In this document: one piece after another, positions 915-12,704 of the stretch
How the letters are laid out: each line of letters starts with the position of its first letter
How positions within the stretch are numbered: the stretch's first letter is position 1
From: Acidimicrobiia bacterium
GTDB taxonomy: Bacteria; Actinomycetota; Acidimicrobiia; Spongiisociales; JAOTWH01
Assembly: GCA_036446035.1 (NCBI GenBank)
Contig: JAZFSG010000095.1
Coordinates: forward strand, 1-49,197
Direction: 5' to 3'
Length of the DNA: 49,197 bases
Notes under the pieces: generated by a model
Told to the model about the DNA's origin: nothing
The model's database searches: none
Seen by the model: the letters and a program-made list of their open reading frames with translations, nothing else
Translations under genes and position numbers: made by a program

Positions 915-3082
915 GAGATGAACAGCCATTCGACGTCCTCGCCGAGCAAGGCCCGGATCTCCTCGGCGAGATCCGGGTAGCGCCCAAGCGAGGGGTCGCT
1001 GTCGACAAGGGCGAAGGCTTCCCTCCTGGCATCCACCAGTAGATCGAAGTCCTTGAGAATGTCGGCCAGCTTTAGATCCGCCATACCGGCCTGGCGGGCG
1101 CCGAACACCGTGCCCTGACCTCGAATCGCCAGGTCCTCCTCGGCCAGCCGAAAGCCATCTGTGGTCTCGGTCATTGCGGCGATCCGCCGCTCCCCCTCGG
1201 TGGTTGTGGGCTCGGCTACGAGAATGCAGGTCGCAGCGTGCTCCCCTCGGCCGACCCTGCCCCGCAGCTGGTGGAGCTGGGAGAGGCCAAAGCGATCCGC
1301 ATCCTCTATGAGCATGACAGTCGCGTTCGGAATGTCGATCCCGACCTCGATGACGGTGGTGGCAACGAGAACGTCGACGTCTCCAGCCCGCACCGAGGTC
1401 ATCACCGCCTCCTTGTCCTTGGGGGGCAGCTGCCCGTGGATCAGCCCGAGTCGGAGATCACTGAAGACGGCGCCCAGTCGTTCGTACTCGGCGGTCGCCG
1501 AAGCCGCGTACACCTTGTCGGAATCCTCGACCAGAGGGCACACCACGAAGGCCTGCCTGCCGGCGGCCGCCTCGGAGCGGATGAGGTCGTGGGCCGAACT
1601 CTGAGCGCCGGGAAGAAGGTGGATGGTCTTCGTGGGTGAGCGACCCGGCGGCATCTCGTCGATCACCGAGACGTCGAGGTCGCCGTAGAGAGTCATCGAC
1701 AGGGTGCGAGGGATCGGGGTCGCGGTCATGATCAGCAGATCGGGCTCGACGGCTCCACCCTTGGCACGCAACGACACCCGCTGATGCACCCCGAAGCGAT
1801 GCTGCTCGTCGACGACGGCAACGCCCAGCCGGGCGAACTCGACGCTCTCCTGGATCAACGAGTGGGTTCCGACAACGATGTCGACCGCCCCGTTGGCGAT
1901 GTACTCGATGACATCGTCTCGGGAAGCGTCCTGGAAGTTGACGGTGGCGTTGTTGGCGGTCAGCAGAGCCATCCGCACTCCTCTGGCATCGGTCGGGGAG
2001 AAAAGGTCGTCCATGCCAAGAGCCGCGCCCTCCCCCCGGAATGGTGGAGCCATCCCGGCGCCTGCCAGCAGGTCGGTGATGCTCAGGTAGTGCTGGTCGG
2101 CAAGCACTTCGGTGGGAGCCATGACCGCGGTCTGGTAGCCGCCTTCAACAGCAGCGAGCAGCGAAGCAACGGCAACAACCGTCTTGCCACTTCCGACCTC
2201 TCCTTGTAGCAGCCGGTGCATCGGGTGAGGGCGCGATAGGTCGTGGCGTATCTCACTCATCACCCTCTCCTGGGCGTCGGTGAGCGGATAGGGAAGCCCC
2301 GATATGAACTCATCTGCCAGCTCACCGTCGACCTCATGGGCGATGCCCTTGGCGTCTTCGATCTGGCGGTGCTTACGCATGGCAAGGGCCACCTCGAGCC
2401 GAAACAGCTCGTCGAATACCAGCCGCCTACGGGCCGCCTGGGCTTCTTCCATGTGCTCGGGGAAGTGGACGCCGGCGATGGCAGAGTCACGGTCGACAAG
2501 GTCGAGTCGGTCGAGAATCTCCTGCGGCACGGCCTCGGCTATCGGTCGACTGCGGTTCAGGGCGTTGTGGATGGCCCGCCGCAGGTAGCCGGGCCCGATC
2601 CCTGCGACCGTTGGGTGCACCGGCACCACGCGGCCCGTCACCAACGACTCCCCGGGCTTGTCGAGCACATCGACGTCTGGAGAGTTGATCTGCAGCTTGC
2701 CGCGATAACGCTCGACCTTGCCGGAAAGGGCAACCTCACTGCCTTCGGTGAGTTGGCGGACCCGGAACGCTTGGTTGAACCAGACTGCGAACAGATAGCT
2801 GTCCCCGTCGAAGAGAGTGGCATCGACGATCGTGAGCTTGCCCCGGGCACAGCGCATCTTCACCGAGGTGATGGTGCCAACGGCGGTGACCTCCTCCCCC
2901 GGCGGGAGCTCCGCTATCGGCAGAACGCGCGATCGGTCGATGTAGCGGCGGGGGGCATGCACCAGGAGGTCTGCAACTGTCGAGATCCCTGATTCGGCGA
3001 GCTTGTCTGCGCGCTTCCCACCTAGCCCTTTGACCTCACCAGCGCTGATCCTCGACAGATAGGCGAGGCTACGGCCGCTCAC
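911..3082 (-). CDS. recG: ATP-dependent DNA helicase RecG
   Basis: Wedge/OB domain, RLLQGEVGSGKT, MAPTEVLA.QH, VDEQHRFGV.QR, MTATPIPRTL, QLHQLRGRVGRG, DGF.LAEEDL..RG.G. Confidence 0.97.
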   Translation of the reverse strand: MSGRSLAYLSRISAGEVKGLGGKRADKLAESGISTVADLLVHAPRRYIDRSRVLPIAELPPGEEVTAVGTITSVKMRCARGKLTIVDATLFDGDSYLFAVWFNQAFRVRQLTEGSEVALSGKVERYRGKLQINSPDVDVLDKPGESLVTGRVVPVHPTVAGIGPGYLRRAIHNALNRSRPIAEAVPQEILDRLDLVDRDSAIAGVHFPEHMEEAQAARRRLVFDELFRLEVALAMRKHRQIEDAKGIAHEVDGELADEFISGLPYPLTDAQERVMSEIRHDLSRPHPMHRLLQGEVGSGKTVVAVASLLAAVEGGYQTAVMAPTEVLADQHYLSITDLLAGAGMAPPFRGEGAALGMDDLFSPTDARGVRMALLTANNATVNFQDASRDDVIEYIANGAVDIVVGTHSLIQESVEFARLGVAVVDEQHRFGVHQRVSLRAKGGAVEPDLLIMTATPIPRTLSMTLYGDLDVSVIDEMPPGRSPTKTIHLLPGAQSSAHDLIRSEAAAGRQAFVVCPLVEDSDKVYAASATAEYERLGAVFSDLRLGLIHGQLPPKDKEAVMTSVRAGDVDVLVATTVIEVGIDIPNATVMLIEDADRFGLSQLHQLRGRVGRGEHAATCILVAEPTTTEGERRIAAMTETTDGFRLAEEDLAIRGQGTVFGARQAGMADLKLADILKDFDLLVDARREAFALVDSDPSLGRYPDLAEEIRALLGEDVEWLFIS

Positions 3083-3833: not shown

Positions 3834-5411
3834 GTGCGACAGGTCCTTGGCGCGCTCGCAGTCGCCGCGACGGTTCTCGTCGCCGCCCCAGCGTCGGCAT
3901 CAGTCTCTAACGGTCAGATCGCTTTCTCAACCTCGCGCGACGGCAACTTCGAGATCTACGTCATGGACGCGGACGGCGGCAACAAGACCCGCCTGACGTC
4001 GAACAGCGCCACCGACCTCGGTCCAGCATTCTCGCCAGACGGCACGAGGATCGCCTTCTCCTCGCTGCGGAACGGCAACTGGGACATCTATGTGATGGAC
4101 GCAGACGGCTCCGACGAGGCCAGGGTCACCACGGACGCCGCCTTCGACGGTGAACCGTCATGGTCCCCGGACGGCTCGACGATCGTCTTCTCCTCGGAGC
4201 GTGATGGGTCCCGCAACATCTACCGCGTCGATGCCGACGGCAGCGACGCCTTCGCCCTCACCGCCACCGCGTTCACAGACGCCAATCCGCGGTGGTCGCC
4301 GAACGGCACCACCATCGCCTTCGACTCCTCGCGAGATGGAAACCGCGACATCTTCGTCATGAATACAGACGGCACCGGACAAACCCCGATAACGACCGAC
4401 CCAGCCGATGACTCGCTTCCCTCGTGGTCACCTGACGGTTCCCGGATCGCATTCACAACCGATCGCGACGGCAACAACGAGATCTACGTCGTGGAAGCCG
4501 ACGGCGTCAATCGGATCCGCCTGACAACCAACGCCGCCTCCGACACGGGAGCCGGCTGGTCCCCAGACGGCTCCAAGCTCGCCTTCTGGTCGCTCCGAAG
4601 CGGTGACGCCGACATCTTCACGATGGACGCAGACGGCGGAGGTGTTCTCAAGCTGACCTCGTCGAGCGCCTTCGACAGCTCGCCGTCGTGGCAAACGCTG
4701 ATCTCGACGCCCGTCGGCCTCGTCGACAGGACACAGGGCTTCTGGCACCTGCGCACCATCGATGGCAACGTCGCAGGCTTCTTCTACGGCAATCCGTTCG
4801 ACATCCCGCTCATGGGCGATTGGGACTGCGACGGCGTCGACACCCCGGGTCAGTTTCGACCGTCGAACGGCCTCGTCTACGTGCGCAACACCAACACCAG
4901 CGGCATCGCGGACGCCGACTACTTCGTCGGTAATCCCGGAGACATCCCGCTGTCGGGCGACTTCGACGGCGACGGCTGTGACACCGTCGCCGTGTACCGA
5001 CCGGCGAACCGCACCGTCTACCTCTTCAACAGCCTCGGTGCCGGTGGGGCGGGGCTCGGAGCAGCAGACATAGCCTTCGAGTTCGGCAACCCTGGCGACC
5101 TGCCGTTCGCCGGCGACTTCGATGGCGACGGCACCGACACAGTTGGCGTGCACCGCCCTGGTACCAACTTCGTCTACTTGCGTAACACCAACTCTGCCGG
5201 ATTCGCCGACACCAAGTTCTTCTTCGGCAGGATCGGCGACATCGTGTTCGCCAGCGACTTCAACGGGGACTCACGCGATTCGGTCGCGGCGTTCCGTCCG
5301 GACACCAGTCAGTTCGTGATCCAGTTCGTCAACGGAACGCGTCCGCCGGATGAGGTGTTCACGTTCGGAAGCGAAGATTGGTATCCCGTGGCAGGAGCGT
5401 TCGGCTTCTAG
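3834..5411 (+). CDS. Secreted TolB/PD40 beta-propeller protein with C-terminal GD(W/F)DGDG repeat module
   Basis: Signal peptide ending ASA, about six P.WSPDG..IAF.S.RDGN.DIYVM repeats, then four full G.PGD.P..GDFDGDG.DT...RP repeats. Confidence 0.85.
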   Translation: MRQVLGALAVAATVLVAAPASASVSNGQIAFSTSRDGNFEIYVMDADGGNKTRLTSNSATDLGPAFSPDGTRIAFSSLRNGNWDIYVMDADGSDEARVTTDAAFDGEPSWSPDGSTIVFSSERDGSRNIYRVDADGSDAFALTATAFTDANPRWSPNGTTIAFDSSRDGNRDIFVMNTDGTGQTPITTDPADDSLPSWSPDGSRIAFTTDRDGNNEIYVVEADGVNRIRLTTNAASDTGAGWSPDGSKLAFWSLRSGDADIFTMDADGGGVLKLTSSSAFDSSPSWQTLISTPVGLVDRTQGFWHLRTIDGNVAGFFYGNPFDIPLMGDWDCDGVDTPGQFRPSNGLVYVRNTNTSGIADADYFVGNPGDIPLSGDFDGDGCDTVAVYRPANRTVYLFNSLGAGGAGLGAADIAFEFGNPGDLPFAGDFDGDGTDTVGVHRPGTNFVYLRNTNSAGFADTKFFFGRIGDIVFASDFNGDSRDSVAAFRPDTSQFVIQFVNGTRPPDEVFTFGSEDWYPVAGAFGF

Positions 5412-6397
5412 GGGCGGTCGAGCGCCAGCTGCACGAGCTCATCGCAGAGCTCGGCGTAGGTCATCCCGGTGGCCAGCCACATCTTGGGGAAGCCACTGAT
5501 GGGTGTGAACCCCGGCATCGTGTTGACCTCGTTGACCAGAAAGCCCCGCTCGGCGTGGTAGCGGAAGTCCACCCTCGCCAGGCCGACACAGCCGAGGACC
5601 TCGAAGGCTCTGGCCGCCAGGACCCGCACCTCCTCGGTCTGTGAAGGAGTCAGGTCGGCAGGCGCCACGAACTCGGACGTGTCGTCTTTGTACTTTGCGT
5701 CAAAGTCGTACCACTCGCCCGCCAGCTTGATCTCCCCCGGAAGCGAGGTCCGCGGCCCCTCGAGGACCGCAACCTCGATCTCACGACCGGGAATGCTCTC
5801 TTCCAGGAGGACCTTCTCTGACAAGGCGAAAGCAGCATCGAGCGCCGCCGACAGCGCCGTTGGGTCGTCCACCCGGGAAACACCGAGCGACGATCCCATG
5901 GAGGCGGGCTTCACGAAGAGCGGGTAGCCGATCTCATCGGCCACCGCAGCCTCCTCCGGGGAGTGGATCGCCCGGTAACGAGCCGTCGGCAATCCGGCAT
6001 GCTCGAAGAGACGCTTGGCGATGTCCTTGTCCATCGCCAGGGCCGAACCCAGAACACCGCAGCCGACGTAGCGAACACCGGCCATGTCGAACATGCCCTG
6101 AATCGTGCCATCCTCGCCGAACGGGCCATGCAGCACGGGGAAAACGACGTCGAATGGGATTGACCCATCGGGTCCCGATATCGTTCCCTCGGGAATCGAG
6201 AAGGAGACCGTCGGGCCAGCTGCTACGAGAGGGTCGGACCCGCTCGCAGCGAGGTGCCAGCTCCCCGAACGATCGATGCCCACAGGCAGGACCTCGTGGC
6301 CGGCTCCATCAAGCGCCTCGAGAATCGCGACCGCAGAAACGCAGGAAATCTCATGTTCGGCCGATCTTCCGCCGAAAACGAGCAAGACATGAGCCAT
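5408..6397 (-). CDS. ddl: D-alanine--D-alanine ligase
   Basis: FGGRSAEHEIS, FPVLHGPFGEDGTIQG, FVKPASMGSS.GVS, YDFDAKY, NEVNTMPGFTPIS. Confidence 0.96.
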   Translation of the reverse strand: MAHVLLVFGGRSAEHEISCVSAVAILEALDGAGHEVLPVGIDRSGSWHLAASGSDPLVAAGPTVSFSIPEGTISGPDGSIPFDVVFPVLHGPFGEDGTIQGMFDMAGVRYVGCGVLGSALAMDKDIAKRLFEHAGLPTARYRAIHSPEEAAVADEIGYPLFVKPASMGSSLGVSRVDDPTALSAALDAAFALSEKVLLEESIPGREIEVAVLEGPRTSLPGEIKLAGEWYDFDAKYKDDTSEFVAPADLTPSQTEEVRVLAARAFEVLGCVGLARVDFRYHAERGFLVNEVNTMPGFTPISGFPKMWLATGMTYAELCDELVQLALDRP

Positions 6398-6436
6398 CCC
6401 ATCGAGCCTATCGCCACGCCCTCAAAGGCCTCACTG

Positions 6437-8197
6437 GTGCGCTCGCCGTACAGACGCCGCGTTGCTCTGATCATGGCGACGATCACGGCGGCGGGCGGCG
6501 GTGCTCTGCTCTACGCAACCATCGACCGCGACGCCCTGGACGATTCGACTATGTGGATGCCCCTGGTGGCCATCGGTGTCACGACCCTGGTGATGGCATC
6601 CTGGCGCTGGAGAAGGGGCAACAGCCTGCTCGTCGACGTCCCTGCCCTGGCTTGGGCAGCGGTCGTGTTGTGGGGCTTGCTTGCCGGCGCTCGCCTGTTC
6701 GAAGAGGTCCCCCCGACGGCGGCGTTCGCCACCGCAACGCTCATCGGCATCTCGCTCCTGGCCCGGCCACTACCCGTTGGCATCATGGCGATCGCCACCC
6801 TTGGCACCTATTACGTGACCACCCGCCAGGTCGAACCACCGCCAGCCGGGTGGGATCTATGGGTTCCGTATGCCGGCCTGGCATCAGTCGTGTTCATCGC
6901 GGCGGCGGCAGCTGCCGCCTTGAACATCTCATCGCGACGCAGCGATACGCAGCTGATCAACATGGCCACAAAGGAGAGGGAGCTGGAGCGGCGCAGCGCC
7001 GACATCGAGCGCCTCTACGACATAAGCAGCACGCTCGGCGCCGGCCACAGTAGGGCCGAAGTCCTCCCTGAGCTGGTGGCCAAGGTGGCCATCTCCGTCA
7101 ACGCCAAGGTCGGGTTGGTTGCGATGTACAACCCTGCCGAGCAGGCGCTCGAGGTCATCTCGCCCATCTGGGTGGCAGGCCACGCGCTGCGCGCCGAGGG
7201 TTACGTGCTTCCGCTCACCGAGAAGAGCTTCAGTCAGCAGGTCTTCGTGTCAGACACGGCCGAGTTCTCCAACTCGATCGATGGGGACGGACTGCTGCGC
7301 GACCTTGACGCCACCCGGGCTGCGGCAGTGCCCCTGCACCGAGAGTCTCGGACCATCGGAGTGATGATGGTCACGGACAAGGAGAGTGGACCATTCGAGG
7401 AGAGCGATCTCAGCCTCCTGAAGTCACTGGCAGCTCCAGCGGCGCTGATCCTCGAGCACTTCACGCGCTTCGAGGAGGCCAAGGCGACCAGTGAGAAGAT
7501 GACGGAGCTGGCCCAGCTGAAGAGTGACTTCGTCTCCGTGACGAGCCACGAGCTGAGAACTCCCCTTACCTCGATCATCGGGAGTCTGGCGACGCTTGCC
7601 AGGCCCGAGCTGGCGCCAACAGATCCTGGTGCCCTGCAGCTCCTGTCCTCGGCACAGCGACAGGCCGATCGCCTCAAGAGGCTCATCGAGGACCTCCTGA
7701 CTGCTTCACGCCTCGACAACAGGGCTCTGCCGTTGCGGCCCCAGTCGATCGATCTCGCCGAGTTCGTACGCGACGCGGTACGGAGTCTTCCGGCAGCAGA
7801 CGAGTTCGTTTCCCTCGATCTGGCGACCGAGATCCCCACCCTCAACGCCGATCCAGACCACGTCAGGCGCATCGTCGTCAACCTCGTCGAGAATGCGATG
7901 AAGTACGCGCCCGGATCGAAGATCGAAGTCGTCGCCAAGGCATCCGGCAAAGAGGTGTGGGTGTCCGTCGTCGACCATGGTCCCGGCGTCCCCTACGAGC
8001 TTCACGACCACATCTTCGACAGGTTCACCCAGGTCGGCGACCACGCAACTCGGGTGAAGGGCGGCACCGGCCTCGGCCTTTCGATCGTGCGGGGTCTCGC
8101 TGAGGCCATGGGCGGTCGCGTTTGGTACGAACCAACCATCGGCGGCGGGGCGACCTTCTCACTGGCCCTGCCGCTGCAGCAGCGGACCCTCAGCTAG
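6437..8197 (+). CDS. Membrane sensor histidine kinase (multi-TM, GAF, HisKA, HATPase); start uncertain (GTG 6437 or ATG 6389)
   Basis: Several hydrophobic helices and a GAF-like segment; H-box SHELRTPLT, N-box NLVENAMKY, DHGPG, GGTGLGL. Confidence 0.9.
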   Translation: MRSPYRRRVALIMATITAAGGGALLYATIDRDALDDSTMWMPLVAIGVTTLVMASWRWRRGNSLLVDVPALAWAAVVLWGLLAGARLFEEVPPTAAFATATLIGISLLARPLPVGIMAIATLGTYYVTTRQVEPPPAGWDLWVPYAGLASVVFIAAAAAAALNISSRRSDTQLINMATKERELERRSADIERLYDISSTLGAGHSRAEVLPELVAKVAISVNAKVGLVAMYNPAEQALEVISPIWVAGHALRAEGYVLPLTEKSFSQQVFVSDTAEFSNSIDGDGLLRDLDATRAAAVPLHRESRTIGVMMVTDKESGPFEESDLSLLKSLAAPAALILEHFTRFEEAKATSEKMTELAQLKSDFVSVTSHELRTPLTSIIGSLATLARPELAPTDPGALQLLSSAQRQADRLKRLIEDLLTASRLDNRALPLRPQSIDLAEFVRDAVRSLPAADEFVSLDLATEIPTLNADPDHVRRIVVNLVENAMKYAPGSKIEVVAKASGKEVWVSVVDHGPGVPYELHDHIFDRFTQVGDHATRVKGGTGLGLSIVRGLAEAMGGRVWYEPTIGGGATFSLALPLQQRTLS

Positions 8198-9352: not shown

Positions 9353-9823
9353 CTATTCACTGAGATCGGCGATCGTCACCGATAGGTGCTGGAACAGCGC
9401 GGCGCTCGACAGGTGGATGTTGACTCCGTGGGCCCCTCCGCCGATGGCGACCTGCCCGTCTGGCACGGACGAGTCTGCGAACACCGGGAACCTGGACGCG
9501 GCGCCGAGCGGAGTGATGGCGCCACGCTCATAGCCGGTGGCCTCTCTGGCTTCTTCGGCTGATGGCATCGTCACTCTGGAGACGCCAAGTGCCTTGCGCA
9601 GTTTCGGCCAAGACATCTGGCGCGGACCTGGCATGAGGATGAACAGGTAGTCGTCGGTGCCTCGGCGGACGATCAGCGACTTCAGGAGATGCTCTGCGTC
9701 GATTCCCTGAAGCTCGGCGCTCTCCTCAACCGACTTAGCCCGCTCGGTTCGCACTACGTCGAATTCGATGTCGGAGCCCTCGAGCTCAGCGATGGCCGGA
9801 GTCGACTCAGGCTCAGATCTCAT
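9353..9823 (-). CDS. YbaK/EbsC aminoacyl-tRNA editing family protein
   Basis: LLKSLIVR, W.KLRKALG, A.EATGYERGAITPLG, IGGGAHG. Confidence 0.85.
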   Translation of the reverse strand: MRSEPESTPAIAELEGSDIEFDVVRTERAKSVEESAELQGIDAEHLLKSLIVRRGTDDYLFILMPGPRQMSWPKLRKALGVSRVTMPSAEEAREATGYERGAITPLGAASRFPVFADSSVPDGQVAIGGGAHGVNIHLSSAALFQHLSVTIADLSE

Positions 9824-10415
9824 CGAGGAGCTGCTGCTTCTTCTCCTCGAACTCGGCGTCGGTGATGGAGCCGAGACGGTGAAGCGAGGCCAGGCGTTCC
9901 AGCGTCGCGGTCGGGTCCTCCGCTATCTCCTTACCGATGGCCGCGACGCGGTCCTCGCGGACTTGATACAGGAGCGACTGGAACTTTTCCGGCGATCCGA
10001 TATCGGTGAAGTGGCTCTGCCCCATCTCCCCCGCGGACTCGATTACGAGGTCGCCGGACCGCAATACTCGCTCGAGGATGGTCTGGCTGAACCGAACGTC
10101 ATTGATGTTCTCCAGCGGCAGGTCAACCCCTCGCCTGGCGATGATCCCCCGCCTCGTGATCAGGCGCTCGTCGGTCAGCACATACCAAGTGAAGAACCAG
10201 GTGACGAAGCGCCACAATCCCCAATAGAGCCAGGCGGCGAACGCGACGCCAGCGATAACGAGGGGCGCCGTGCCGTCCCAAAGCATGAAGGCGCCGATGC
10301 CGACCGCCAAGAAGAGCAACGACCACAGCGCCGGCACCGCCAGCATTCTCCAGTGAGGCCGAAACTCCGTGAGGATCTCTTCGCCCTCGGTGAGCAGTTC
10401 TTTGGGGAAAGCCAT
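9813..10415 (-). CDS. Membrane protein with bacterial PH domain and C-terminal SHOCT
   Basis: RPHW, two TMs, YVLTDERLITRRGII, GDLVIESAG, and C-terminal LERLASLH..G.ITDAEFEEKKQQLL. Confidence 0.85.
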   Translation of the reverse strand: MAFPKELLTEGEEILTEFRPHWRMLAVPALWSLLFLAVGIGAFMLWDGTAPLVIAGVAFAAWLYWGLWRFVTWFFTWYVLTDERLITRRGIIARRGVDLPLENINDVRFSQTILERVLRSGDLVIESAGEMGQSHFTDIGSPEKFQSLLYQVREDRVAAIGKEIAEDPTATLERLASLHRLGSITDAEFEEKKQQLLDEI

Positions 10416-10448
10416 GGGAAAAAGCCTAACGGCGGGCTGTCGGCTTTG

Positions 10449-10540
10449 GGCCGAGCGCCGCCAGGTCGGAGGGGGCTTGCTGTTTCCTCCCCACCAGAGG
10501 TGGCCGAGCGCCGCCAGGTCGGAGGGGGCTTGCTGTTTCC
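10449..10540. repeat. Perfect 39-nt direct repeat (REP-like), two copies, period 53
   Basis: GGCCGAGCGCCGCCAGGTCGGAGGGGGCTTGCTGTTTCC at 10449-10487 and 10502-10540. Confidence 0.9.
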
Positions 10541-10598
10541 AGCTCTTGCCACCACTCGAGAGGCGCCCGACGCGGCCGTGAGGAAGCTCAAAGCTCCC

Positions 10599-10655
10599 AA
10601 AACGAAAAACCCCGAGGGAGCCTTAGCCGAAGCTTTGGCCCTCTCGGGGCTTTCT
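10599..10655 (-). terminator. Intrinsic terminator closing predicted RNA-A (P7 hairpin of unit 1)
   Basis: Minus strand GAAAGCCCCGAG...CTTCGG...CTCGGGG followed by TTTTTCGTTTT. Confidence 0.7.
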
Positions 10656-11145
10656 CACGAGGCGACCTTGCGACCGCTCCGAGGTCCCTCCGAACCGAAG
10701 TTCTTCGGGCGTGGCCTCTGCAGTTCGATCCAGTGAGTCCGAAGACCCTCTGGGCCGTCCCCCGTGAAGGGGTACCCGTAGAGGCCGCTCTTCCGGCCCT
10801 TTCGAGCCTTCAGAGTGTTGGAACCCCGAGGGAGCCTCAGCCGAAGCCTTAGCCCTCTCGGGACTCCAGTCGAAGCGACCTTGCGACCGCTCCGATTCCT
10901 TCCGGGCCGAAGCCCTTCCGGAGCGGCTCCGTTCGGTTCGATCCAGTGAGTCCGAAGACCCTCTGGGTCGTCCCCCGTGAAGGGGAAACCCGGCGAAGCC
11001 GTCCAAGGACCCTTGCGAATCCCTAGAAGAGATTCCGTTTCGTTGAGGCGGTTAAACCTCCCCGTCTCCCTTGCGAGAGTGGCGGAACCTCACCCGTTGG
11101 ACCCGAAGGTCCTCTGGGTCTCCGCTCAGTTGCCTGAGCTGAGGA
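10599..11145 (-). ncRNA. Putative novel structured ncRNA 'RNA-A' (~545 nt): 5' domain plus two tandem ~210-nt modules (11027-10820 and 10815-10599)
   Basis: Seven cUUCGg and six GNRA-capped hairpins on the minus strand, G-U pairs valid only on that strand, covariation between copies, own promoter and terminator, no credible ORF. Confidence 0.75.
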
Positions 11146-11149
11146 GAGA

Positions 11150-11178
11150 AACTTAAGAGCCGAATGCCCGATGGTCAA
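11150..11178 (-). promoter_or_regulatory. Sigma-70/SigA-type promoter for RNA-A
   Basis: Minus strand TTGACC-N17-TAAGTT (-35 at 11178-11173, -10 at 11155-11150), directly upstream of the first hairpin. Confidence 0.7.
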
Positions 11179-11511
11179 GCTGGAGAGGTAGGAAGTTTTC
11201 GCGTCTCAGTTCCACTTTTCGCGCAGTGCCAAGTGCAGCTTTCGCGCACTTCCGAGGCCTCGGAGGTGCGCAGTCTCAGGCATGGCGGAAGGGCACGAAG
11301 AAGCGGAGCTTCGCTGCGCCGCACGACATCGCGAACGCAGGCATCGCGATACCGGCGTGCGGTTGCGGAGGCAGGAGGGAAGATCACGATCGAGCCCTTT
11401 CATCATCGCCGCGATGAGGAGGCCCGAGTCCGTTGACGGAGGTGGAAGGTCGAGGCCGATCCGATTGACGGAGGTGGAGAGGGTCGATACCGCGATCTTC
11501 TCCAGAATTAC

Positions 11512-11726
11512 GGAAACCCCGAGGGAGTCTCGGCCGAAGCCTTGACCCTCTCGGGGTTCCTCTTGAGGCCACCTTGCGGTTGCTCCAAGTTCCCTCCGAA
11601 CCGAAGTTCTTCGGGCGTGGTCTCGTCGGTTCGATCCAGTGAGTCCGAAGACCCTCTGGGCCGTCCCCCGTGAAGGGGTACCCGGCGAGACCGCCTCCCT
11701 GAATCCTTGCGGACCCTGAGAGGAAG
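11512..11726 (-). ncRNA. Putative novel structured ncRNA 'RNA-B' (~215 nt), single copy of the same module
   Basis: Same P1-P7 architecture; 56-nt core (11629-11684) identical to 10723-10778; three cUUCGg and two GCAA loops. Confidence 0.75.
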
Positions 11727-11730
11727 CTGA

Positions 11731-11759
11731 AACCTATCCCATCTCGCGGCAACCTTCAA
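11731..11759 (-). promoter_or_regulatory. Sigma-70/SigA-type promoter for RNA-B
   Basis: Minus strand TTGAAG-N17-TAGGTT (-35 at 11759-11754, -10 at 11736-11731), directly upstream of P1. Confidence 0.68.
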
Positions 11760-11798
11760 GTGGGAGAGAGTGATTGTTTTCGCGTTCTCGGAGCCCTC

Positions 11799-11833
11799 CG
11801 AATTACACGCGTGTCACTCGCTTGTCGTAGAAT
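11799..11833 (+). promoter_or_regulatory. RecA-NDp/PafBC-like leaderless promoter with near-palindromic 21-mer
   Basis: CGAATTACACGCG-TGTCAC-N10-TAGAAT, then 7 nt to GTG 11841. Confidence 0.6.
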
Positions 11834-11840
11834 CACGGTC

Positions 11841-12704
11841 GTGGATACCACTCTTGAAGAAGGGGTCAGACCCAACGAGATCACGCGGCTCTCCCCCAGC
11901 CGCGCCTCTGACTTCAAGCTCTGCCCGCAGCTGTTCAAGTTCAGGGCCATCGACCGGCTGCCTGAGCCCTCGACTGTGTACCAGGCTCGGGGCACTACAG
12001 CTCACCTCGCGCTGCAGCGTCTCTTCGATCTTCCATCCCCGGAGCGAACTCCCGAAGCACTCTTCAATCTCTTCCGCAAGGCTTGGGTGGAGCTGAAGGA
12101 TGAGGAGTACCCCGGCCTCTTCGAGTCCGTCGAGGAGGAGCGTGCCTGGGGGTTGGAGAGCCTCGAGCTGCTCGCCAACTACTTCCTGGTCGAGGATCCG
12201 CGTAGCTTCGATCCAGTCGATCGCGAGCTCGACATGACAGAAGATCTCGACTCGGTGGCCATGCGCGGCATCTTGGATCGCATCGAGGAGAACGAGAACG
12301 GCGATCTCATCATCGTCGACTACAAGACGGGCAAGGCGCCCCCCGAGCGCTACTCGCTTTCGGCCTTCTTCGCCCTCAAGATCTACGCCCTGCTCATTCG
12401 CAAACGAACGGGCCGCACCCCGGTCGAGCTTCGCCTGCTCTACCTGAACGGTCCCGACCTCTATCGACTCGAGGTCAACGAAGGGCAGCTGGTGGCGATG
12501 GAGAAGCAGGTCAAGGCTCTATGGACTGCCATCCAGCGAGCGATCGCTCAGGATCAGTTCCCGACGCGCGTCAGCCGGTTGTGCGATTGGTGCTCCTTCA
12601 AAGAGATCTGCCCTGCCTGGGAGAAGACCGACGAGGCTGCCCTGGTCGAGTCCGCCGTCAACGCCGGCATCAACGCTGGCATCAGCACCGGCGCCGCCTC
12701 CTAG
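11841..12704 (+). CDS. PD-(D/E)XK RecB/AddB/Cas4-like nuclease with 4-Cys (Fe-S staple) motif
   Basis: LSPSR..DF..CP, GT.AH, RGILDRIE, IVDYKTGK, LKIYA, LCDWCSFKEICPAW. Start GTG 11841 chosen from the leaderless -10. Confidence 0.9.
   Translation: MDTTLEEGVRPNEITRLSPSRASDFKLCPQLFKFRAIDRLPEPSTVYQARGTTAHLALQRLFDLPSPERTPEALFNLFRKAWVELKDEEYPGLFESVEEERAWGLESLELLANYFLVEDPRSFDPVDRELDMTEDLDSVAMRGILDRIEENENGDLIIVDYKTGKAPPERYSLSAFFALKIYALLIRKRTGRTPVELRLLYLNGPDLYRLEVNEGQLVAMEKQVKALWTAIQRAIAQDQFPTRVSRLCDWCSFKEICPAWEKTDEAALVESAVNAGINAGISTGAAS

What the first reader, a model, noticed from the sequence alone, without database searches (positions are those of the whole stretch)
10599..11759. Candidate novel ncRNA system: three copies of a ~210-nt seven-helix RNA module in two transcription units
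Seen: on the minus strand, units at 11726-11512, 11027-10820 and 10815-10599 share one architecture. P1 (GNRA loop) is followed by a single C, then P2 enclosing P3 (CCCC-UUCAC-GGGG) and P4 (UUCG), then P5 (UUCG), P6 (GCAA) and P7 (UUCG, terminator-like). The region has 10 cUUCGg and 8 GNRA loops, all reading on the minus strand, and many G-U pairs that only work on that strand. Two TTGAnn-N17-TAnnnT promoters sit right at the 5' ends. It is the only long non-coding stretch in the window. I see no rRNA, tRNA, RNase P, tmRNA, SRP or riboswitch hallmarks. Inference: abundant, stable, modular ncRNAs of about 545 and 215 nt. Function is unknown; options include protein or RNAP sequestration (Ms1/6S-like role) or self-assembly through GNRA contacts, as in OLE/ROOL/GOLLD-type large RNAs.
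Basis: partly seen in the sequence, partly recalled or inferred. Interest (0 to 1): 0.92.

Follow-up and report, generated by a model that had tools for sequence, protein, structure and literature searches.

The report
New tandem structured RNA family, Acidimicrobiia
Three tandem copies of a roughly 210-base, seven-helix RNA gene belong to a previously undescribed family of abundant, highly structured small RNAs found in nearly every genome of one uncultured order of Acidimicrobiia; what they do is still unknown.

Summary
Three minus-strand units (11726-11512, 11027-10820, 10815-10599) share one seven-helix fold. There are 10 cUUCGg loops on that strand and none closed by a stem on the other.

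Rfam 15 gives no hit. The own genome holds only these three copies, so it is not a REP or MITE.

It is a family. The full-unit model hits 100 of 151 genomes of the same order, with 1-6 units each. The invariant 3' hairpin P7 hits 35 of 36 other same-order genomes, but only weakly in 6 of 114 from other orders of the class.

Covariation is strong: 93% of cells are paired and 59 of 75 pairs show compensatory change. An alignment not fitted to the model agrees.

Units have their own conserved promoters: CGCGAAA, N13, CGCGAAA, N15-16, TTGAC, N17-19, TAnnTT.

Metatranscriptome contigs from four studies cover only the predicted RNAs, at depths up to about 5000.

Function is unknown. My best guess is a stable trans-acting RNA that binds a protein through the invariant P7/P4 helix. 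6S and Ms1 membership is not met.

The parts
11779..11784 (-). Proximal CGCGAA(AAC) upstream box of the U1 promoter. It starts 25 nt upstream of the -35 hexamer.
   Evidence: The same offset is seen at the U2 promoter and in relatives.
11731..11759 (-). U1 promoter: -35 TTGAAG (11759-11754), 17-nt spacer, -10 TAGGTT (11736-11731).
   Evidence: for coordinates. The architecture is conserved in relatives. The strict sigma-70 scan did not flag it.
11512..11726 (-). Unit U1, a seven-helix RNA (P1-P7). The P7 core is 11555-11517.
   Evidence: Model R1 scores 238.9 bits. Only its P7, plus one 31-nt piece, is covered by RNA contigs.
11198..11246 (-). Three direct CGCGAA(A) boxes (11246-11241, 11223-11218, 11203-11198), 20-23 nt apart, upstream of the U2/U3 promoter.
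11150..11178 (-). U2/U3 promoter: -35 TTGACC (11178-11173), 17-nt spacer, -10 TAAGTT (11155-11150).
11028..11143 (-). 5' leader of the U2-U3 transcript. It has three hairpins (GCAA, UUCG, GCAA loops), including a P4-like hairpin at 11118-11093. It looks like a degenerate partial unit without P7.
   Evidence: Sequence; motif. RNA contigs reach 11112.
10820..11027 (-). Unit U2. Its P7 core (10862-10824) is internal, with no U-tract after it.
   Evidence: Contigs bridge the U2/U3 junction in 4 of 4 RNA runs.
10599..10815 (-). Unit U3. The P7 core is 10648-10610, followed by a TTTTTCGTTTTG tail that looks like an intrinsic terminator.
   Evidence: The terminator scan flags it. RNA contigs stop at 10611.
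11760..12704 (+). Divergent neighbour: a PD-(D/E)XK nuclease with a Cas4-like C-terminus. The true start is probably further in, because orthologue alignments begin near residue 41.
   Evidence: Pfam PDDEXK_1, E 6e-36. The Cas4 match is below its cut-off. Synteny holds across the order.
9813..10415 (-). Downstream neighbour on the same strand: a membrane protein with bPH_2 and SHOCT domains.
   Evidence: Pfam. Found downstream of the array in many relatives but missing in some.

Best explanation
These are genes for stable, abundant, trans-acting structured small RNAs. They belong to an undescribed family restricted to one uncultured order of Acidimicrobiia.

Shown:
- Each unit, or short string of units, has its own promoter: a sigma-A-like TTGAC-N17-19-TAnnTT core preceded by two phased CGCGAAA boxes.
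- Each RNA starts with a GNRA-capped hairpin and ends in the hairpin P7.
- The base of P7 keeps its sequence (CCCCGAG-A-GGG paired with CUC-C/A-CUCGGGG, with an invariant G-U), while its tip covaries.
- The body between them is a variable set of tetraloop-capped helices, conserved in structure but not in sequence.
- A short copy of the P7 motif recurs as P4.

Inferred (about 50%): the RNA works by binding a protein at the P7/P4 helix, one or two sites per unit and up to six units per genome. It would titrate or scaffold that protein, with dosage set by the dedicated promoters. The protein is unknown.
For: - Structure: 93.2% of cells are paired and 59 of 75 pairs show compensatory change. None of 500 shuffles reached this, and slid controls gave 35-56%. 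An alignment not fitted to the model agrees.
- Strand: 10 versus 0 stem-closed UUCG loops. Model scores are 239 bits sense against about 25-30 antisense.
- Distribution: full-unit model R1 hits 100 of 151 order genomes. Hairpin model R2 hits 35 of 36 other same-order genomes, only weakly in 6 of 114 from other orders of the class, and weakly in 4 of 140 genomes from other classes of the phylum.
- Single locus: 3 copies in the own genome. No hit in phages, plasmids or IMG/VR.
- Own promoters: the architecture aligns across about 20 genomes. CGCGAA is 3.55 per kb on the sense strand in arrays, against 0.58 background.
- Expression: contigs from 4 metatranscriptome studies cover 10611-11112 and U1's P7. 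They cover none of 10420-10607, 11125-11500 or 11736-11800. Depth reaches about 5000 in X17, where 12 of 17 pieces are at least 99% identical.
- Protein binding rather than base pairing: conserved sequence is confined to helices P4 and P7, junctions and loops are not conserved, and the loops are tetraloops.
- P7 keeps its sequence even where it is internal and does not terminate, as in U2.
- Secondary loci in 7 genomes share no common neighbour, which fits action in trans.
Against: - No partner protein is identified, and no binding was tested.
- Contigs cannot give the strand, the ends or true expression levels. U1's body is almost uncovered.
- The alignment was fitted to the model, which flatters the pair counts.
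- The base of P7 would pair equally well on the opposite strand (one G-U and one A-C either way), so that part alone does not fix the strand.
- The RNA sits next to the same nuclease gene across the order, and in one genome of another order. This could mean a cis or gene-specific role.
- The P7/P4 motif was not found elsewhere in five complete genomes beyond control level, so there is no sign that it mimics an rRNA site.
Confidence: 0.5

Rival explanations
1. Base-pairing regulatory sRNAs. The variable 5' body would carry target-recognition segments, and the constant P7 would serve as terminator and as a handle for an unknown chaperone. This resembles the constant 3' module of Hfq- or ProQ-dependent sRNAs.
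For: - The layout is a constant 3' hairpin plus a variable 5' body, as sibling genes with their own promoters.
- Secondary loci have unrelated neighbours.
Against: - Almost no conserved single-stranded sequence exists. Loops are UUCG or GNRA tetraloops, and the bodies are conserved as helices through compensatory change, not as sequence.
- No targets were sought.
Confidence: 0.15
2. A functional analogue of 6S or Ms1: an abundant RNA that binds RNA polymerase in slow-growing cells, in an order where no 6S RNA is detectable.
For: - The Rfam 6S model (RF00013) matched 0 of 41 genomes of the order.
- Depth is very high in sediment metatranscriptomes.
- The family is near-universal in the order.
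Against: - There is no closing rod and no central bubble. The fold is a row of separate hairpin domains. Passages of PMC9130861 give the rod and bubble as the defining structure.
- The Ms1 neighbourhood (HAD-IB hydrolase, oxidoreductase) is absent.
- The 6S test is weak. It rang in only 5 of 14 control genomes.
- Unit length varies from 107 to about 320 nt.
Confidence: 0.1
3. A self-assembling or compactly folded architectural RNA. GNRA loops (P1, P6) would dock into the G-C-rich P4/P7 helices within or between units, as in the large orphan RNAs ROOL, GOLLD and OLE.
For: - GNRA loops recur at fixed positions, and two copies of one helix motif occur per unit.
- Tandem units are co-transcribed.
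Against: - Nothing here tests tertiary contacts.
- Many family members have only 3-4 hairpins and about 125 nt, which is small for such assemblies.
- No Rfam similarity to those RNAs.
Confidence: 0.08
4. A cis-acting leader or attenuator of the downstream bPH_2/YbaK/FabI genes, or a regulator of the adjacent nuclease gene.
For: - The array is on the same strand as, and upstream of, the PH-domain gene in many genomes, and always beside the nuclease gene.
- In G045, from another order, the RNA ends about 30 nt before the nuclease gene's ATG on the same strand.
Against: - Units have their own promoters and terminator-like ends.
- RNA contigs stop at 10611, with none over 10420-10607.
- The PH-domain gene is missing beside the array in some relatives (L014, L015).
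- Secondary loci lack both genes.
- No conserved junction nucleotides suggest a ligand pocket.
Confidence: 0.05
5. A DNA-level element: a REP or MITE-like repeat, a protein-binding palindrome, or an integration site, rather than an RNA gene.
For: - The base of P7 is a near-perfect palindrome that folds equally well on both strands.
- Two secondary copies lie next to phage-type integrase genes.
Against: - There is one locus per genome as a rule and 3 copies in the own genome.
- Tetraloops are strand-specific and G-U pairs are conserved.
- RNA contigs are confined to the units.
- No phage, plasmid or IMG/VR hits.
Confidence: 0.02

Closest known systems
Ms1 RNA and 6S RNA (RNA-polymerase-binding RNAs)
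   Same: An abundant, stable, structured RNA of a few hundred nucleotides in Actinomycetota. It is probably protein-binding, and no 6S was detected in the order.
   Different: - No rod with a central bubble, and no pairing between the 5' and 3' ends.
- The Ms1 gene neighbourhood is absent.
- No Rfam hit.
- Occurs as tandem multi-copy genes of variable architecture.
Multi-copy protein-sponge sRNAs (CsrB/RsmX/Y/Z type). This comparison is recalled, not tested.
   Same: Sibling genes, sometimes in tandem; a dedicated upstream activating sequence; a repeated short motif per RNA; variable copy number.
   Different: The repeated motif here is a helix with a mismatch and a G-U pair, not GGA in loops. 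I did not test whether CsrA is present in these genomes.
Orphan structured RNAs: raiA motif, ROOL, GOLLD, OLE
   Same: Conserved, highly structured, function unknown, lineage-restricted. The raiA motif occurs in Acidimicrobiia according to a passage of PMC10861870.
   Different: No covariance-model match to any of them. The units are much smaller than ROOL, GOLLD or OLE, and few unpaired nucleotides are conserved.
Type III toxin-antitoxin RNA arrays (ToxI-like). This comparison is recalled.
   Same: Tandem RNA repeats followed by a terminator and a protein gene.
   Different: Units are about 125-260 nt, not about 36 nt, and each has its own promoter. The downstream gene is a bPH_2/SHOCT membrane protein, not a known endoribonuclease toxin, and it is sometimes absent.

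Membership tests
Any Rfam 15 family (including 6S, raiA, OLE, ROOL, GOLLD, riboswitches, tmRNA, SRP, RNase P) | Covariance-model match at the gathering score | tested here: not met
   There were 0 matches in the whole window. With E up to 10 over 10300-12000, only 5 chance-level matches appeared, at E 3 or above.
6S RNA | A long irregular hairpin with a central open-promoter-like bubble | tested here: not met
   The consensus folds are a row of separate hairpin domains with no closing stem. The defining feature is taken from passages of PMC9130861.
6S RNA | Binds the sigma-A holoenzyme and templates product RNA | not testable with these tools
   This needs co-immunoprecipitation or in vitro transcription.
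Ms1 RNA | Conserved neighbours: HAD-IB hydrolase and oxidoreductase genes | tested here: not met
   The neighbours here are a PD-(D/E)XK nuclease and a bPH_2/SHOCT protein. The Ms1 synteny is taken from passages of PMC9130861. Its supplementary tables were not seen.
Ms1 RNA | An RNA of about 300 nt with a central bubble plus short 5' and 3' hairpins; binds the RNA polymerase core | tested here: not met
   The structure is not met. Core binding cannot be tested here.
REP or MITE dispersed repeat | Many dispersed copies, with terminal inverted repeats or target-site duplications | tested here: not met
   There are 3 copies at one locus in the 1.98-Mb assembly. Relatives carry 1-6 copies, mostly at one syntenic locus. 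The assembly is only 86% complete.
Type III toxin-antitoxin RNA array | Short (about 34-46 nt) tandem repeats followed by an endoribonuclease toxin gene | tested here: not met
   Units are 107-320 nt and have their own promoters. The downstream protein carries bPH_2 and SHOCT domains. The repeat length of the known family is recalled.
Cis-regulatory leader or riboswitch | Conserved ligand-pocket nucleotides and regulated read-through into the downstream gene | tested here: inconclusive
   Junctions are not conserved, and no RNA contig crosses 10607-10420. Contigs cannot exclude rare read-through.

The most novel reading that the evidence does not exclude
The RNA is a functional partner (regulator, scaffold or specificity factor) of the adjacent Cas4-like PD-(D/E)XK nuclease, which sits beside the AdnAB double-strand-break repair genes. 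The RNA and nuclease genes stay adjacent across all twelve families sampled in the order. In one genome of another order they are adjacent in the opposite relative orientation, which suggests selection for linkage rather than inherited gene order.
Probability: 0.07. Interest if true: 0.85.

Novelty: new variant of a known kind. Interest (0 to 1): 0.6.

Why it matters
Acidimicrobiia are widespread in sediments and waters, but the order studied here has no cultured model that I could identify. Nothing in the papers I searched describes its regulatory RNAs.

This RNA family:
- is near-universal in one order;
- is among the deeper-covered contigs in four independent sediment metatranscriptomes;
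- is driven by a dedicated, conserved promoter design;
- carries an invariant helix motif that looks like a protein-binding site.

It is therefore probably a core regulator of these organisms. It gives a ready covariance model for annotating such genomes and metatranscriptomes, a defined bait (P7) for finding the partner protein, and a defined DNA element (the CGCGAAA boxes) for finding the transcription factor.

If the partner proved to be RNA polymerase or the neighbouring repair nuclease, the finding would reach beyond this lineage.

Tried and rejected
Leads that went nowhere:
- Ms1 or 6S identity was rejected on fold and gene neighbourhood.
- raiA was rejected because there is no Rfam hit, although raiA occurs in this class.
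- I looked for mimicry of an rRNA or other cellular helix with the pattern CGAGNGGG...CTCNCTCG in five complete relatives. It found only the RNA loci plus non-hairpin matches at control level.
- I looked for a common protein neighbour at secondary loci. Seven loci were examined and 10 neighbouring proteins scanned. They were a luciferase-like monooxygenase, a TetR regulator, an amidohydrolase, an integrase and a histidine kinase, with nothing shared beyond one genus.
- The histidine kinase in the window (6254-8197) and the kinase beside one secondary copy share only the catalytic core (29% identity over 222 residues).
- The dual CGCGAAA box as a marker exclusive to these RNAs holds only partly. 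In three complete genomes of family f4 it is nearly confined to the RNA locus. In the own genome it also precedes nrdJ. In G036 (family f10) it occurs at 8 sites, most of them not followed by a recognisable unit.
- A coding reading is unlikely. U3 has at least one stop in each of the three sense frames. U1 has none, so stop counts alone are weak in this G+C-rich DNA.
- Phage, plasmid and IMG/VR searches gave no match.
- The genome contigs pattern scan returned only 7 stretches, far fewer than genome search found. I used it only to name the class.
- Parts of the stretch without RNA-contig cover (10420-10607, 11125-11500, 11736-11800, and most of U1's body) are reported as seen. A hole in contigs proves nothing by itself.
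- Paper searches found nothing on this RNA: 'Acidimicrobi' with 'structured noncoding RNA' (1 paper, on raiA); 'Acidimicrobi' with 'RNA motif' and 'tandem' (0 papers); the motif string (43 papers in all, and the 10 listed were unrelated).
- I did not request any supplementary files. The Ms1 paper's supplementary tables could list taxa that I did not see.
Full report
**1. What is in the sequence**

Three units lie on the minus strand at 11726-11512 (U1), 11027-10820 (U2) and 10815-10599 (U3).
- They align with 82% mean column identity. By BLAST against U3, U1 is 88% and U2 83% identical.
- RNAalifold on the three gives 75 pairs, 10 of them already with compensatory change.
- The U1 minimum-free-energy fold agrees (-111.3 kcal/mol, z -3.68, 0 of 200 shuffles as stable). 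The opposite strand also folds well (z -3.27), so energy alone does not fix the strand.
- The loops do fix it. CTTCGG occurs 10 times on the minus strand and 2 on the plus strand. Stem-closed UUCG loops number 10 versus 0. Elsewhere in the window the hexamer runs at 0.5-0.8 per kb, against 8.6 per kb here. About 8 real GNRA loops read on the minus strand.
- U3 has a stop in every sense frame.

**2. Not a known family, not a dispersed repeat**

- Rfam 15 has no match in the window at gathering scores. Only chance-level matches appear at E up to 10.
- The own assembly (1.98 Mb, 143 contigs, 86% complete) holds only these three copies.
- There are no matches in phage, plasmid or IMG/VR collections.

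**3. It is a family**

The organism is an Acidimicrobiia MAG. Four of the 7 pattern hits in named genomes are 'Acidimicrobiia bacterium'.
- BLAST of U3 finds matches in 24 of 41 related genomes (G000 included), mostly to the 3' hairpin and often two or three per locus.
- A covariance model of the three units (R1) finds 1-3 units per locus in the relatives' loci, 107-266 nt long. In a further set of loci two matches reach 318 nt.
- Across the order, R1 hits 100 of 151 genomes at E of 1e-6 or below, with up to 6 units per genome. By family the counts are f1 7/7 and f9 18/18, but f10 0/18, f3 0/2 and f12 5/18.
- A model of the 3' hairpin alone (R2, from 38 hairpins) hits 35 of 36 other same-order genomes in a class-wide sample. 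It hits only 6 of 114 genomes of other orders, and those weakly.
- In a phylum-wide sample the only strong hits are the own genome and the four other same-order genomes. Four of 140 genomes from other classes of the phylum give weak hits of 30-39 bits.
- In family f10, three of five genomes carry a shortened P7 (P4-like) about 600 nt from the same neighbouring gene. The other two gave only weak hits elsewhere.

**4. What is conserved**

- In distant relatives the body changes: hairpins are gained or lost, but all are capped by UUCG or GNRA loops.
- Each unit ends in P7, a hairpin of about 20 bp. Its base is nearly invariant in sequence (CCCCGAG-A-GGG paired with CUC-C/A-CUCGGGG, flanked by covarying GGAAC/GUUCC-type pairs). 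Its tip covaries.
- On 30 distinct full-length homologues, 93.2% of cells pair and 59 of 75 pairs show change on both sides. None of 500 shuffles reached the observed values, and slid registers gave 35-56% pairing. Every helix is supported, and one G-U in P7 is present in 30 of 30 sequences. That alignment was fitted to the model.
- A MAFFT alignment of 13 homologues with a free RNAalifold prediction recovers the same helices, with 35 of 62 pairs compensatory.
- Conserved primary sequence is confined to P7 and to the apex of P4, which is a short copy of the same motif. Junctions and other loops are not conserved.
- The motif was not found elsewhere in five complete genomes beyond control level.

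**5. Transcription units**

- Upstream of U1 lies TTGAAG-N17-TAGGTT. Upstream of the U2 leader lies TTGACC-N17-TAAGTT. The generic sigma-70 scan flagged neither.
- Comparison across about 20 genomes shows a fixed design in front of nearly every unit: CGCGAAA, about 13 nt, CGCGAAA(AC), 15-16 nt, TTGAC(G), 17-19 nt, TAnnTT, then a few bases to the P1 hairpin.
- CGCGAA runs at 3.55 per kb on the sense strand in arrays, against 0.58 antisense and 0.57 background. That is roughly two boxes per unit.
- In the window, U1 has one box and the U2 promoter has three. U3 follows U2 after 4 nt with no promoter.
- The same design precedes nrdJ in the own genome. In three complete f4 genomes it is almost confined to the RNA locus. 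In one f10 genome it occurs at 8 sites.
- I read the boxes as a site for a transcription factor or an upstream promoter element. This is inference.

**6. Expression**

- Six metatranscriptome runs hold 11-16% of the words of 10420-11800.
- I laid four of them, from four studies. Contigs cover 10611-11112 (U3, U2 and most of the leader) and U1's P7. At U1's P7, many contigs run on into unlike sequence, as relatives' RNAs would.
- No contig lies on 10420-10607, 11125-11500 or 11736-11800 in any run. These stretches serve as silent controls inside the same laid sequence.
- In X17, 12 of 17 pieces are at least 99% identical, and summed word depth reaches about 5000.
- Contigs bridge the U2/U3 junction in all four runs. 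U1's body has only one 31-nt piece.
- Contigs show presence, not strand, ends or level.

**7. Context**

- The array sits between a divergent PD-(D/E)XK nuclease gene (PDDEXK_1; Cas4-like tail below its cut-off) and, on the same strand, a bPH_2/SHOCT membrane protein, YbaK and FabI. AdnA and AdnB lie nearby.
- This neighbourhood is kept across the order. The whole region is syntenic, though, so linkage within the order is weak evidence of function.
- In G045, from another order, an RNA of about 290 nt with the same style and a P7-like end lies directly upstream of the nuclease gene on the same strand. It ends about 30 nt before the ATG. Four other out-of-order genomes show no such linkage.
- Seven secondary loci share no neighbour.

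**8. How it most likely works**

Shown: separate, conserved promoters; a stable hairpin at each end; structure under selection; presence in RNA libraries, restricted to the units; one locus per genome as a rule.

Inferred: because only helices P7 and P4 keep their sequence, and because P7 keeps it even when it is internal (U2), the motif is most likely a recognition site for a protein. The RNA would titrate or scaffold that protein, with dosage set by unit number and by the boxed promoters. I give this about 0.5.

Rivals are listed with their odds in the Rival explanations section:
- base-pairing sRNAs;
- a 6S/Ms1-like polymerase binder;
- a self-assembling RNA;
- a cis-acting leader;
- a DNA-level element.

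**9. Comparison and novelty**

- 6S and Ms1 membership fails on fold and on gene neighbourhood. A 6S-like role is not excluded: the Rfam 6S model found nothing in 41 genomes of the order, though that test rang in only 5 of 14 control genomes.
- No paper in the searched library describes this RNA.
- I rate it a new RNA family of a familiar general kind: lineage-restricted, structured, probably protein-binding small RNAs in sibling copies.

**10. Limits**

- Genomes G022 and G011 are unpublished. One G022 hairpin is among the 38 used to build R2, and both genomes appear in some tallies and listings. No conclusion rests on either.
- I did not request any supplementary files.

Noticed in passing
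window 10449-10487 and 10502-10540: Two exact 39-nt direct repeats, 53 nt apart, lie between the U3 terminator and the start of the bPH_2 gene (10415). Their purpose is unknown; they may belong to that gene's promoter or leader.
   Followed up: no
window 11433-11445 and 11465-11477 (minus strand): A 13-nt direct repeat (CCACCTCCGTCAA) occurs twice in the roughly 330-nt spacer between U1 and the U2 promoter boxes.
   Followed up: no
G000 contig C39:356-404, upstream of nrdJ: The same promoter design (two CGCGAAA boxes, then TTGACC) precedes the class II ribonucleotide reductase gene, upstream of an AT-rich stretch that looks like NrdR boxes (recalled motif). This suggests nrdJ and the RNAs share a regulator in this genome.
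   Followed up: partly
G036 (family f10), 8 sites, loci L101, L111, L116, L121, L127, L129: Near-identical paired boxes (CGCGAAAAGTTTTCTTAGGTCGCGAA type) occur at eight places, all on one strand. Only one is at the RNA locus. This could be a wider regulon or a small dispersed element.
   Followed up: partly
L094 (G227:C1) and L093 (G228:C6): Secondary copies of the RNA have a tyrosine-recombinase (phage integrase) gene a short way downstream of the RNA's 3' end, as is seen at tRNA and tmRNA integration sites. The L093 gene was not itself scanned: it is only 28% identical to the Pfam-confirmed L094 integrase.
   Followed up: partly
L079 (G045:C77), locus 2289-2640, minus strand: In a genome of another order, a multi-hairpin RNA of about 290 nt with a P7-like end lies directly upstream of, and on the same strand as, the orthologous PD-(D/E)XK nuclease gene. 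It lacks the CGCGAAA boxes.
   Followed up: partly
window about 11805-11814: A perfect 10-nt palindrome (ACACGCGTGT) lies in the short divergent region just upstream of a TAGAAT -10-like box for the nuclease gene. It may be an operator.
   Followed up: no
window 3917-4637: Five copies of a 132-nt period repeat lie inside the 525-residue ORF at 3834-5411. They look like protein-level beta-propeller-type repeats.
   Followed up: no
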